From sequence record PZ386976.1: 64,000 bases of DNA, one strand, 5' to 3'. A program made the position numbers and the translations under genes. This document shows positions 8,730 through 19,274 of the stretch, in pieces. Position 1 is the stretch's first letter. Each line of letters opens with the position of its first letter. The notes under the pieces were generated by a model. That model ran no database searches and was not told the origin of the DNA. It saw only the letters and a list, made by a program, of their open reading frames with translations. The stretch comes from a phage.

Positions 8730-10082
8730 ATGTGGAATCCAATTGTTAATGTAGATATTACATTGAACACCGCAGGAACTACAAGAGAAGGTTTTGGCTT
8801 ACCACTATTCTTAGCTTCAACAGATAATTTCGAAGAAAGAGTTCGTGGTTACACTTCCTTAACTGAAGTTGCTGAAGATTTCGATGAGAATACTGCTGCA
8901 TATAAGGCTGCTAAACAACTTTGGAGTCAGACTCCTAAAGTAACTCAGCTTTATATTGGTAGACGCGCTATGCAGTACACTGTATCAATTCCTGATGCCG
9001 TTACCGAAAGTACAGACTACTCAATTACTGTAGCTGCTGGCGGTGGAATTTCTCAACCATTCCAGTATACAGCACAAAGCTCAGATACTGCTGAGGTAGT
9101 TTTGCAACAGTTTAAAACACAGATTGAAGCTGACCCAACAATCAAAGATAAGGTTTCTGTGAATGTAACTGGTAGCAATGGCTCTGCCACAATGATTATT
9201 ACCAAAGCTGGTGATAATGACTTTGTGAAAGTAACAACCACAGCACAGACTGTATATATTGCAAGTACAACTGCCGATACAGCAGCAACTGCTCTGGCAG
9301 CTATCGAAGCTTACTCTACTGACTGGTATTTCATTGCAGCAGAAGACAGAACTCAACAGTTTGTCTTAGCAATGGCTTCTGAGATTCAGGCTCGCAAGAA
9401 AATCTTCTTTACAGCTAACTCCGATGTAACAGCCCTGCAAGGTACAGAATTAGCCAGTGCAAATGATGTTCCAGCACAGCTTGCTAAGAATATGTACACT
9501 CGTACAGTTTGCTTGTGGCATCACGCAGCAGAAGAAGATTACCCAGAGATGGCATACATTGCTTATGGTGCTCCATATGATGCAGGTTCAATTGCTTGGG
9601 GTAATGCTCAGCTAACTGGTGTAGCAGCTTCTCTACAACCATCTAATCAGAGACCTCTGACAAGTATTCAGAAGTCTGCTTTAGATGCACGTCACTGTAA
9701 CTTTATTGACCTTGATGGTGGTGTTCCAGTGGTTCGTAGAGGGGTTACTTCTGGTGGGGAATGGATTGATATCGTCCGTGGTGTTGACTGGTTAGAATCA
9801 GACCTGAAAACTTCTCTGAGAGACTTGCTAATTAATCAGAAGGGTGGTAAGATTACTTATGATGATACTGGTATTACCCGTATTCGTCAAGTCATTGAAA
9901 CCTCTCTGCAAAGAGCAGTCAACAGAAACTTCCTGTCATCTTACACAGTTAATGTTCCTAAAGCCTCTCAAGTTGCTTTGGCAGACAAGAAAGCACGTAT
10001 CCTGAAAGACGTTACCTTCGCAGGTATCTTAGCAGGGGCTATCTTGGATGTTGACTTGAAAGGTACAGTGGCTTACGAATAA
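8730..10082 (+). CDS. tail sheath protein (putative)
   Basis: 450 aa ORF followed by 148 aa tube-sized ORF, chaperone pair and tape measure: myovirus sheath-tube-chaperone-TMP order. Confidence 0.4.
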   Translation: MWNPIVNVDITLNTAGTTREGFGLPLFLASTDNFEERVRGYTSLTEVAEDFDENTAAYKAAKQLWSQTPKVTQLYIGRRAMQYTVSIPDAVTESTDYSITVAAGGGISQPFQYTAQSSDTAEVVLQQFKTQIEADPTIKDKVSVNVTGSNGSATMIITKAGDNDFVKVTTTAQTVYIASTTADTAATALAAIEAYSTDWYFIAAEDRTQQFVLAMASEIQARKKIFFTANSDVTALQGTELASANDVPAQLAKNMYTRTVCLWHHAAEEDYPEMAYIAYGAPYDAGSIAWGNAQLTGVAASLQPSNQRPLTSIQKSALDARHCNFIDLDGGVPVVRRGVTSGGEWIDIVRGVDWLESDLKTSLRDLLINQKGGKITYDDTGITRIRQVIETSLQRAVNRNFLSSYTVNVPKASQVALADKKARILKDVTFAGILAGAILDVDLKGTVAYE

Positions 10083-10097
10083 TAGAGGTAAATTGGA

Positions 10098-10544
10098 ATG
10101 GCTATGTATCAGCAATATTCCCCTAAAGACGTTGTATGTAGCTGGAATGGTATTGCCATTGAAGGCTTTGCCCCAGACTCATTCTTGCGTCTACAGAGAA
10201 CATCACCACTTGTGACACCAGTTGTTGGTGCAGGTGGTCAGGTTGCTCTGACAAGAAATGCAGACAAGACAGGTACTATTGAGATTGAGTTAATGCAGAC
10301 TTCTCTCTCTAATCAGATGCTTTCTGCAATTCAAGCTAAACAAGACAATATGGAACTTGAAGAAGATATCTCTTCTAACTTCGTAATCTACGACCCATCA
10401 GGCTCTGTTCTGGCAACTGGTATTAATGCTTGGTTGCAGGAATTACCGCAGATTGAACTTGGTCGTGACCAGAACTCTAAAACTTGGATTTTTGGTTGTG
10501 AGAAGCTAGACTACACTTCTACAATTCCAGCGTCAAGTGTTTAA
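10098..10544 (+). CDS. tail tube protein (putative)
   Basis: 148 aa ORF after sheath candidate, followed by terminator hairpin. Confidence 0.4.
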   Translation: MAMYQQYSPKDVVCSWNGIAIEGFAPDSFLRLQRTSPLVTPVVGAGGQVALTRNADKTGTIEIELMQTSLSNQMLSAIQAKQDNMELEEDISSNFVIYDPSGSVLATGINAWLQELPQIELGRDQNSKTWIFGCEKLDYTSTIPASSV

Positions 10545-10555
10545 TAAATCCTATA

Positions 10556-10589
10556 AGGGGGAGACTTTAAAAGGTCTTCCCCTTTTTTG
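10556..10589 (+). terminator. rho-independent terminator after tube gene
   Basis: gggggagac / gtcttcccc stem (one mismatch) with loop tttaaaag followed by T-run. Confidence 0.5.
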
Positions 10590-10617
10590 TTTCTTTTAAA
10601 AGTATTAAGGAATCACA

Positions 10618-11016
10618 ATGAAAACAGAATCTAGAGTAATTAATGGTAAGAAAGTAAATATCGTTCTGCTTGGGGCAAGAGATGGTATTAAGATGTCTAT
10701 GAAGTTGGGTAAAATTGTTGTTCCAACCTTTGCACAGATGCTATCAAGTCTGACTGACAAGGGTAAGAAGGAAGCTCCAATGGTTCCATTTAAAGAGCTT
10801 GTTGAAGCTTGTTTTGACAGAATTGAAGAAATTAACCTTGAAGAGATGGCTACCTTATTATTTCAAGGGGCAACTGTTGACGACTTCCCACTTAATATTG
10901 ATACGTACTTCCAAGCAAACTATGGTGAGTTCATTGATTACTTAGCATTTGCGCTGGAGGCAAACTTCGGAAGTTTTTTCGAAGCAAGCATTTTCAAAAG
11001 CCTAACTTCTCAGTAA
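10618..11016 (+). CDS. tail assembly chaperone (upstream ORF of frameshift pair)
   Basis: 132 aa ORF directly upstream of tape measure region; slippery heptamer near its 3' end. Confidence 0.45.
   Translation: MKTESRVINGKKVNIVLLGARDGIKMSMKLGKIVVPTFAQMLSSLTDKGKKEAPMVPFKELVEACFDRIEEINLEEMATLLFQGATVDDFPLNIDTYFQANYGEFIDYLAFALEANFGSFFEASIFKSLTSQ
10974..10980 (+). other. candidate -1 programmed frameshift site (T TTT TTC)
   Basis: X XXY YYZ heptamer in zero frame of 10618..11016; -1 frame from here is stop-free and runs into 11019..11258. Confidence 0.45.
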
Positions 11017-11018
11017 AC

Positions 11019-11257
11019 ATGGGTAATACTCTACAGACACCACTGACTGATGCTGCTGTAGAGGCAACCTATGAAGAAGCAGACGAGATGAAATTTGTGC
11101 TTGCTATTTATGGTATGGAAGGGTGTAAAGAAACACTTGACCAACTCTTTGCTATGACATTCTCTGATTTATTATCATTGAGACAATTTCTTGAGATTCA
11201 GAGGTCGTATAAAGAGGAAATTGCTTACAACGAACTTAGAAGAGCAGGAAAAATGTA

Positions 11258-11258
<1 letters not shown>
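11019..11258 (+). CDS. tail assembly chaperone, downstream (-1 frame) segment
   Basis: 79 aa ORF in -1 frame relative to upstream chaperone, immediately before tape measure. Confidence 0.45.

Positions 11259-19274
<8,016 letters not shown>

What the first reader, a model, noticed from the sequence alone, without database searches (positions are those of the whole stretch)
10618..11258. Programmed -1 frameshift candidate in the tail assembly chaperone pair
The 132 aa ORF ends with a zero-frame slippery heptamer T TTT TTC (10974-10980). The -1 frame from that point is free of stops and runs directly into the 79 aa ORF at 11019, immediately upstream of the tape measure gene. This is the conserved G/GT-type arrangement for tail chaperones.
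Basis: partly seen in the sequence, partly recalled or inferred. Interest (0 to 1): 0.5.

Follow-up and report, generated by a model that had tools for sequence, protein, structure and literature searches.

The report
Known tail-chaperone frameshift in Felix-O1-like phage
This is the ordinary, already annotated programmed -1 ribosomal frameshift by which a Felix-O1-like phage makes a short and a long version of its tail assembly chaperone just upstream of the tape measure gene.

Summary
The window is a Felixounavirus genome, 99% identical to phages XTG1 and KhF1. ORF 10618-11016 is a Pfam Phage_TAC_15 tail assembly chaperone. It carries an in-frame T_TTT_TTC at 10974-10980, 36 nt before its stop. 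The -1 frame is open from 10938 to 11258 and ends on the tape measure start codon.

Comparison with relatives supports a real frameshift:
- The heptamer is conserved at the same codon position in four Ounavirinae genera and Yersinia phage P778, down to 41% protein identity. It is T_TTT_TTT in metagenomic relatives at 24-31% identity.
- Homology between fused proteins runs through the junction.
- The ATG of the 79-aa ORF has no Shine-Dalgarno sequence and is not conserved. Kolesnikvirus has no start codon there at all.
- The 27 nt after the heptamer are the most conserved stretch of the locus.
- No downstream RNA structure was found. A GGAGG lies 13 nt upstream, within the range reported for -1 stimulators.

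The feature is not new. GenBank records of Salmonella phage Meda (97% identical) and Citrobacter phage Michonne annotate the joined frameshift product at this heptamer, and two genome announcements mention it. I found no experimental proof for this lineage. Interest is low.

The parts
8730..10082 (+). Tail sheath gene (context)
   Evidence: phrog_205 tail sheath, E 2.7e-123; Pfam DUF3383
10098..10544 (+). Probable tail tube gene, rV5 Orf52-like (context). The libraries and GenBank only call it a virion structural protein; 'tube' is my inference from its position after the sheath gene.
   Evidence: Pfam KPP10_Orf10, phrog_280; annotated as virion structural protein in relatives
10555..10592 (+). 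Intrinsic terminator hairpin plus T run between the tube and chaperone genes (context)
   Evidence: Scan hit with 13 pairs; annotated as terminator in XTG1, Meda and Michonne
10618..11016 (+). Zero-frame tail assembly chaperone, the 'G-like' product (132 aa)
   Evidence: Pfam Phage_TAC_15, 71 bits against a cut-off of 22; phrog_1613, E 2.9e-48
10956..10960 (+). Shine-Dalgarno-like GGAGG, 13 nt 5' of the heptamer; candidate 5' stimulator (inferred)
   Evidence: Anti-SD duplex -9.3 kcal/mol; only 0.8% of sampled coding positions have one this strong. It recurs in some distant lineages but not all. A 9-14 nt spacing is reported for -1 shifts (PMC5009743).
10974..10980 (+). Slippery heptamer T_TTT_TTC in the zero frame
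   Evidence: Conserved in four Ounavirinae genera and Yersinia phage P778; T_TTT_TTT in distant relatives. The H_HH.U_UU.Y class is among the most efficient in E. coli (PMC4066793). Michonne's annotated slippage position maps inside the homologous heptamer.
10981..11007 (+). Dual-coding block read in both frames; the most conserved nucleotides of the locus
   Evidence: Column entropy 0.07-0.16 here against 0.3-0.8 elsewhere in 37 unique sequences; alignment
10980..11258 (+). The -1 frame 'T-like' extension (92 aa plus stop). The fusion is join(10618..10980,10980..11258), 213 aa.
   Evidence: phrog_4963 tail assembly chaperone, E 2.8e-55, for its last 79 aa
11019..11258 (+). The 79-aa ORF as called mechanically. 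Its ATG has no SD and is not conserved.
   Evidence: Anti-SD energy +0.7 kcal/mol, weaker than 98% of gene starts in the window; the start is absent or shifted in other genera
11258..13486 (+). Tape measure protein gene; its ATG overlaps the stop of the -1 ORF (TAATG)
   Evidence: Pfam TMP_3; phrog_4036, E 0

Best explanation
A programmed -1 ribosomal frameshift operates in the tail assembly chaperone gene of a Felixounavirus.

Most ribosomes translate 10618-11016 and release the 132-aa chaperone. A minority slip while two tRNA-Phe molecules occupy UUU (P site, 10975-10977) and UUC (A site, 10978-10980). Both tRNAs re-pair one base back on UUU UUU. Reading then continues at CGA (10980) in the -1 frame to the stop at 11256-11258.

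The result is a 213-aa fusion with junction ...ANFGSFF|RSKHFQKP.... It shares its first 121 residues with the short product and carries a 92-residue 'T-like' C-terminal part.

By analogy with lambda gpG/gpGT and P2 gpE/gpE+E', the shared part would coat the tape measure protein. The extension would recruit tube subunits, and the fixed low ratio of the two products would matter for tail assembly.

What is shown here: the sequence anatomy, the family membership, the conservation of the site and of the -1 peptide, and the absence of an independent start signal.

What is inferred: that slippage actually occurs, its efficiency (probably a few percent), the role of the upstream GGAGG as a dnaX-like stimulator, and the assembly function.
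For: - Anatomy is confirmed.
- ORF1 is Pfam Phage_TAC_15 and both ORFs match PHROG 'tail assembly chaperone' families. They sit between the tube and tape measure genes.
- T_TTT_TTC is in frame at the homologous codons in Felixounavirus, Mooglevirus, Suspvirus, Kolesnikvirus and Yersinia phage P778, whose ORF1 proteins are 41-83% identical to the window.
- It is T_TTT_TTT at the same motif position in five metagenomic relatives at 24-31% identity, each followed by a 96-115 codon -1 ORF.
- BLASTP of fused products aligns straight through the junction for three of the five. One example is window residues 4-192 against L042 residues 13-197, with junctions at 121 and 130.
- The -1 peptide just after the site (R-x-K-x-F-Q-K-P) is invariant across the five aligned Ounavirinae-type sequences, upstream of any start codon.
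- Kolesnikvirus has no ATG, GTG or TTG in the -1 frame until halfway through the T part. Yersinia phage P778 has only a TTG. The ATG position differs in Mooglevirus.
- The window's ATG at 11019 has no SD (+0.7 kcal/mol, weaker than 98% of gene starts).
- Nucleotide conservation peaks exactly at 10963-11007.
- The heptamer class is among the most shift-prone in E. coli (PMC4066793).
- A GGAGG lies 13 nt upstream, inside the reported 9-14 nt range.
- GenBank annotates joined frameshift products in Meda and Michonne. Michonne's slippage coordinate 47149 falls within the homologous heptamer. Genome announcements state the frameshift (PMC4591319, PMC4319497).
Against: - I found no experimental detection of the fusion for any Felix-O1-like phage.
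- There is no stimulatory RNA structure downstream. The 50 nt after the heptamer fold at -3.2 kcal/mol, worse than shuffles (z +0.95), and there is no conserved or covarying structure across genera.
- The upstream GGAGG is missing in Kolesnikvirus and weak in Yersinia phage P778 and L045.
- In Felixounavirus itself an ATG sits 2 nt after the ORF1 stop, so some independent re-initiation cannot be excluded.
- Most GenBank records of this genus annotate two separate genes.
Confidence: 0.86

Rival explanations
1. There is no recoding. The 79-aa ORF is made on its own by termination-reinitiation: the ORF1 stop TAA at 11014-11016 is followed 2 nt later by ATG 11019. The heptamer is incidental.
For: The stop and the ATG are 2 nt apart. 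Most database records annotate two separate CDSs. The chance of an in-frame heptamer in the overlap is about 0.09.
Against: The ATG has no SD. The start is not conserved: it lies 8 nt further on in Mooglevirus, only a TTG is available in Yersinia phage P778, and there is no start codon at all in Kolesnikvirus or in the distant relatives. The heptamer, the open -1 frame back to it and the -1 peptide RxKxFQKP are all conserved nonetheless. Homology runs through the junction. Re-initiation could still coexist with frameshifting in Felixounavirus.
Confidence: 0.08
2. The same fusion arises by transcriptional slippage. RNA polymerase would add one extra U on the T6 run (T7 in distant relatives), and the edited mRNA would then be translated normally.
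For: The site is a homopolymer run in every relative. One added U gives exactly the same protein sequence (S-F-F-R...), so the sequence data cannot tell the two mechanisms apart.
Against: The bacterial slippage cases described in the review cited here involve runs of about 9 A or T (PMC5009743). Six T is short. The run is kept in the exact X_XXY_YYZ register with the zero frame in all relatives, which transcriptional slippage would not require. An SD-like element at -1 stimulator spacing fits a ribosomal mechanism.
Confidence: 0.04
3. The shift occurs in the same overlap but at the single-tRNA tetramer U_UUC (10992-10995, ATT|TTC) rather than at the heptamer.
For: T_TTC is in register at 10992-10995 and is conserved in the Ounavirinae. 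It lies inside the open -1 window.
Against: The second U_UUC is not present at the matching place in the distant relatives, which keep only the T7 site. In the zero frame the first two bases of the preceding P-site codon ATT would not re-pair after a -1 shift (GCA).
Confidence: 0.02

Closest known systems
Annotated tape measure chaperone frameshift of Felix-O1-like phages (Salmonella phage Meda MH586731; Citrobacter phages Michonne NC_028247 and Moogle KM236239)
   Same: Same genes, same heptamer and same junction. Meda is 97% identical over the locus and carries a two-piece CDS labelled 'Tape measure chaperone frameshift product'. Michonne's 'ribosomal slippage (47149)' maps inside the homologous T_TTT_TTC. 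The frameshift is stated in PMC4591319 and PMC4319497.
   Different: Nothing of substance. In all of these cases it is a prediction, not an experimental result.
Lambda gpG/gpGT, and the conserved tail assembly chaperone frameshift of long-tailed dsDNA phages (Levin et al. 1993; Xu, Hendrix & Duda 2004, as summarised in PMC5009743)
   Same: Two overlapping ORFs directly upstream of the tape measure gene; a -1 shift near the end of the first ORF; a low-abundance fusion sharing the N-terminal chaperone domain.
   Different: The heptamer is U_UUU_UUC, not lambda's G_GGA_AAG (the latter from my own knowledge). This is a contractile-tailed phage. The protein family is Phage_TAC_15; I did not test for direct sequence similarity to gpG. 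The product ratio is unknown.
P2 gpE/gpE+E' (myovirus version of the same arrangement)
   Same: Myovirus gene order of sheath, tube, chaperone with -1 extension, tape measure. A T-rich slippery run (from my own knowledge). The review reports 2-3 fold higher efficiency than lambda.
   Different: No sequence relationship was tested here. Efficiency in this phage is unknown.
E. coli dnaX -1 frameshift signal
   Same: An internal SD-like sequence within the 9-14 nt upstream of an X_XXY_YYZ heptamer.
   Different: dnaX also has a strong 3' stem-loop and reaches about 50% shifting. No 3' structure is present here, and the SD-like element is not conserved in all relatives.

Membership tests
Conserved tail assembly chaperone -1 frameshift (lambda G/GT type) | The gene pair lies between the major tail/tube gene and the tape measure gene | tested here: met
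   Order is sheath, tube, TAC, -1 ORF, TMP
Conserved tail assembly chaperone -1 frameshift (lambda G/GT type) | The second ORF overlaps the end of the first in the -1 frame and is open back to the shift site | tested here: met
   The -1 frame is open 10938-11258, a 79 nt overlap; the +1 frame is closed
Conserved tail assembly chaperone -1 frameshift (lambda G/GT type) | An in-register X_XXY_YYZ slippery heptamer lies within the overlap | tested here: met
   T_TTT_TTC at 10974-10980; its class is efficient in E. coli
Conserved tail assembly chaperone -1 frameshift (lambda G/GT type) | The shift site and the two-frame arrangement are conserved in divergent relatives | tested here: met
   Five Ounavirinae-type lineages and five distant metagenomic relatives keep it. 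Homology is colinear through the junction.
Conserved tail assembly chaperone -1 frameshift (lambda G/GT type) | The downstream ORF lacks its own translation start signals | tested here: met
   No SD; the start codon is not conserved and is absent in Kolesnikvirus
Conserved tail assembly chaperone -1 frameshift (lambda G/GT type) | The fusion protein is actually produced, and a set ratio of short to long product is needed for tail assembly | not testable with these tools
   Needs proteomics, reporter assays and phage genetics. Papers found and those read gave no experimental report for Felix-O1-like phages.
Pfam Phage_TAC_15 (PF21822) | Score above Pfam's gathering threshold over most of the model | tested here: met
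   71 bits against a cut-off of 22; residues 9-124 match model positions 1-124 of 127
dnaX-type stimulated -1 frameshift signal | An SD-like sequence 9-14 nt 5' of the heptamer | tested here: met
   GGAGG at 10956-10960 with a 13-nt spacer; background 0.8%. It is not conserved in Kolesnikvirus, and its function is untested.
dnaX-type stimulated -1 frameshift signal | A stable stem-loop or pseudoknot 5-9 nt 3' of the heptamer | tested here: not met
   No stable or conserved structure; no Rfam match

The most novel reading that the evidence does not exclude
The most novel reading still open has two parts.
1. The frameshift in this chaperone family is driven without any 3' RNA structure. The stimulator would be a 5' Shine-Dalgarno-like element, which appears independently as GGAGG, AAGGAG or GGGAG 11-13 nt upstream in several deep lineages. 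It might act together with the invariant 27-nt block after the heptamer, through the mRNA or the nascent peptide.
2. Felixounavirus additionally makes a free T-part by re-initiation at ATG 11019, giving three products instead of two.
Probability: 0.2. Interest if true: 0.3.

Novelty: already known. Interest (0 to 1): 0.1.

Why it matters
The main value is for annotation. Most Felixounavirus records I inspected, and the two Felix O1 proteins their notes refer to, list two separate small genes. The biologically relevant products are most likely a 132-aa chaperone and a 213-aa frameshift fusion, join(10618..10980,10980..11258).

It adds nothing new to the understanding of recoding or tail assembly. 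The one small exception is the recurrent upstream SD-like element with no 3' structure, which could be tested cheaply in a reporter assay.

Tried and rejected
I folded 10981-11080, 10940-11040 and the first 50 nt after the heptamer, both in the window and in six relatives. I also ran RNAalifold on seven genus-level sequences. The result was nothing stable, conserved or covarying in the Ounavirinae. The only decent hairpin in the window starts about 37 nt downstream, which is too far. Two distant relatives (L042, L043) have small hairpins right after their T7 (z about -2). This was not pursued.
- A terminator-like hairpin at 10954-10970 followed by the T run, flagged by the scan. Pair counts over 12 diverse sequences were no better than shuffles or slid registers. 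Rejected as chance.
- Rfam at permissive E-value over 10500-11400: only sub-threshold noise.
- PDB sequence search with the fusion: no meaningful hit.
- The +1 frame alternative is closed after 6 codons.
- I did not run the large protein-database searches or a structure prediction. The annotated joins in Meda and Michonne already answered the question of prior knowledge. The fusion is also not a contiguous window translation, and I assumed (without trying) that the structure tool would turn it away.

Full report
**What the window is.** A megablast of 10000-11600 finds 295 phage records, almost all Felixounavirus or other Ounavirinae. The best are Enterobacteria phages XTG1 and KhF1 at 99.3% identity. 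The region belongs to the tail module of a Felix-O1-like myovirus:
- tail sheath 8730-10082 (phrog_205, E 2.7e-123)
- an rV5-Orf52-like virion structural protein, taken here as the tail tube from its position, 10098-10544
- a strong terminator hairpin 10555-10584 followed by a T run
- ORF1 10618-11016
- ORF2 11019-11258
- tape measure protein 11258-13486 (Pfam TMP_3; phrog_4036, E 0)

ORF1 matches Pfam Phage_TAC_15 at 71 bits against a gathering score of 22. Both ORFs match PHROG families labelled tail assembly chaperone.

**Checking the observation.** TTTTTTC is at 10974-10980, and 10975 is a zero-frame codon start, so the reading is AGT|TTT|TTC, i.e. T_TTT_TTC. It lies 12 codons before the ORF1 stop rather than at the very end. 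The -1 frame is open from 10938 to the stop at 11256-11258. After the heptamer it reads RSKHFQKPNFSVN and then the M of the 79-aa ORF. The +1 frame closes after six codons. A shift on the heptamer gives a 213-aa product, join(10618..10980,10980..11258).

Is this more than chance? In 65 long ORFs of the window there are 68 in-register X_XXY_YYZ heptamers in 18,051 codons. Finding at least one in the 26-codon overlap therefore has a probability of about 0.09. This is, however, the only in-register TTTTTTC, and the only heptamer followed by more than 35 open -1 codons (92 here). The sequence alone is suggestive. The comparative data decide the matter.

**Comparative evidence.** I took the homologous loci of these phages, with ORF1 identities to the window of 41-83%:
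- Si3 and Meda (Felixounavirus)
- Michonne, Sf17 and HP1 (Mooglevirus)
- CHB7 (Suspvirus)
- Roscha1 and SE5 (Kolesnikvirus)
- Yersinia phage P778

Every one has T_TTT_TTC in register at the same codons (the S-F-F of the motif NFxSFF). Each also has a -1 ORF of 96-107 codons ending at or just before the tape measure start.

A scan of viral contigs with the ORF1 alignment gave 36 loci. Thirty of them (L012-L041) are close Ounavirinae-type relatives and all carry in-register TTTTTTC. Five of the remaining six (L042-L046, 24-31% identical by BLASTP) have T_TTT_TTT at the homologous motif position, followed by a 96-115 codon -1 ORF. The sixth, L047, is GC-rich, has only a CCCTTTC heptamer 165 nt before its stop, and was not pursued.

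I built fusions at those sites and compared them with the window fusion by BLASTP. For three of the five (L042, L045, L046) the alignment runs straight through the junction. One example is window residues 4-192 against L042 residues 13-197, with junctions at 121 and 130.

The first residues of the -1 peptide (R-x-K-x-F-Q-K-P) are invariant across the five aligned Ounavirinae-type sequences, and they lie upstream of any possible start codon. The start codon itself is not conserved:
- ATG 2 nt after the stop in Felixounavirus and Suspvirus
- ATG 8 nt after the stop in Mooglevirus
- only a TTG in Yersinia phage P778
- no ATG, GTG or TTG until halfway through the domain in Kolesnikvirus and in the distant relatives

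In the window the ATG at 11019 has no Shine-Dalgarno complementarity. Its anti-SD energy is +0.7 kcal/mol, weaker than 98% of the window's gene starts and weaker than the median random ATG.

Column entropy over 37 unique sequences has its minimum at 10963-11007 (0.07-0.16 against 0.3-0.8 elsewhere). That stretch is the heptamer plus the part translated in both frames. In a -1 overlap every base is a non-wobble position in one frame or the other, so dual coding is enough to explain this.

**Mechanism.** The heptamer U_UU.U_UU.C belongs to the H_HH.U_UU.Y class, which Sharma et al. list among the most efficient -1 motifs in E. coli (PMC4066793). Both the P-site and A-site tRNAs are tRNA-Phe and can re-pair on UUU UUU.

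The 50 nt after the heptamer fold at -3.2 kcal/mol, worse than shuffles. Longer windows give z-scores of -1.7 and +0.1, with the only real hairpin starting about 37 nt downstream. RNAalifold over seven genus-level sequences finds nothing conserved or covarying. Rfam has no match.

There is a GGAGG at 10956-10960, 13 nt 5' of the heptamer. Only 0.8% of sampled coding positions in the structural module have an anti-SD match this strong (-9.3 kcal/mol) in the same relative window. The review by Atkins et al. gives 9-14 nt as the spacing at which internal SD-like sequences stimulate -1 shifts, as in dnaX (PMC5009743).

The element is present in Felixounavirus, Mooglevirus and Suspvirus. It recurs as AAGGAG or GGGAG in distant L042, L043, L044 and L046. 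It is absent in Kolesnikvirus and weak in Yersinia phage P778 and L045. It is therefore at most an accessory stimulator, and its role is inference.

The assembly function rests on analogy with lambda gpG/gpGT and P2 gpE/E+E'. In that model the shared domain binds the tape measure, the extension recruits tube protein, and the product ratio matters. None of this was tested here.

**Rivals.**
- *Independent translation of ORF2 by termination-reinitiation.* This is conceivable in Felixounavirus (TAAacATG). It cannot explain the conservation of the heptamer, of the open frame and of the -1 peptide in lineages that have no start codon. It may coexist with the frameshift.
- *Transcriptional slippage on the T6 run.* This would give an identical protein. 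But six T is short compared with the runs of about nine described for bacteria, and the strict register with the zero frame argues for a ribosomal event.
- *A shift at the tetramer U_UUC (10992-10995).* This is possible in principle, but that site is not kept in the distant relatives.
- *A terminator-like hairpin at 10954-10970.* The scan flagged it, but it has no covariation support.

**What is already known.** Salmonella phage Meda is 97.2% identical over the locus and carries a two-piece CDS annotated 'Tape measure chaperone frameshift product'. The genome announcements of Michonne and Moogle state that the tape measure chaperone of these Felix-O1-like phages uses a -1 translational frameshift, citing Xu, Hendrix & Duda 2004 (PMC4591319, PMC4319497).

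Most other records of the genus still list two separate genes. The notes in the XTG1 record cite two separate Felix O1 proteins, NP_944899 and NP_944900, one of them described as hypothetical. I found no experimental demonstration for this lineage.

**Verdict.** The feature is an already known, already annotated instance of the conserved tail chaperone frameshift. Interest is low. The only mildly new details are the lack of a 3' structure and the recurrent 5' SD-like element.

Noticed in passing
window 10956-10960: An SD-like GGAGG lies 13 nt upstream of the slippery heptamer. Such a strong anti-SD match occurs at only 0.8% of sampled coding positions. Similar elements (AAGGAG, GGGAG) sit 11-13 nt upstream of the T7 site in distant relatives L042, L043, L044 and L046, but not in Kolesnikvirus. 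It is a possible dnaX-like 5' stimulator.
   Followed up: partly
window 10981-11007: This 27-nt block directly after the heptamer is almost invariant, even in genera whose chaperone is only 41-50% identical. It is the most conserved stretch of the locus. Dual coding explains it, but an additional mRNA-level or nascent-peptide role is not excluded.
   Followed up: partly
window 10992-10995: A second in-register single-tRNA shift tetramer, T_TTC (ATT|TTC), lies inside the overlap and is conserved in the Ounavirinae. In Yersinia phage P778 the corresponding sequence is C_TTT_TTC.
   Followed up: no
window 10555-10592: A strong intrinsic terminator hairpin (13 pairs plus a T run) lies between the tube gene and the chaperone gene. 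It is annotated as a terminator in XTG1, Meda and Michonne. It probably lowers transcription of the chaperone and tape measure genes relative to the sheath and tube genes.
   Followed up: partly
window 11253-11260: The stop of the -1 ORF overlaps the tape measure start (ATGTAATG), which suggests translational coupling of the tape measure to the preceding reading frame.
   Followed up: no
L042:1855-1880 and L043:1861-1890: Two distant relatives have small hairpins starting 1-4 nt after their T_TTT_TTT site (-12.4 and -10.2 kcal/mol, z about -2). The Ounavirinae have none. The stimulators may differ between branches of the family.
   Followed up: no
L007:1270-1505 (Erwinia phage Roscha1) and L010:1389-1502 (Salmonella phage SE5): In Kolesnikvirus records the T-part is either not annotated at all (Roscha1 has a 236-nt 'gap') or is called as a 37-aa fragment (SE5). 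It has no start codon and can only be read through the frameshift, so these records are mis-annotated.
   Followed up: partly
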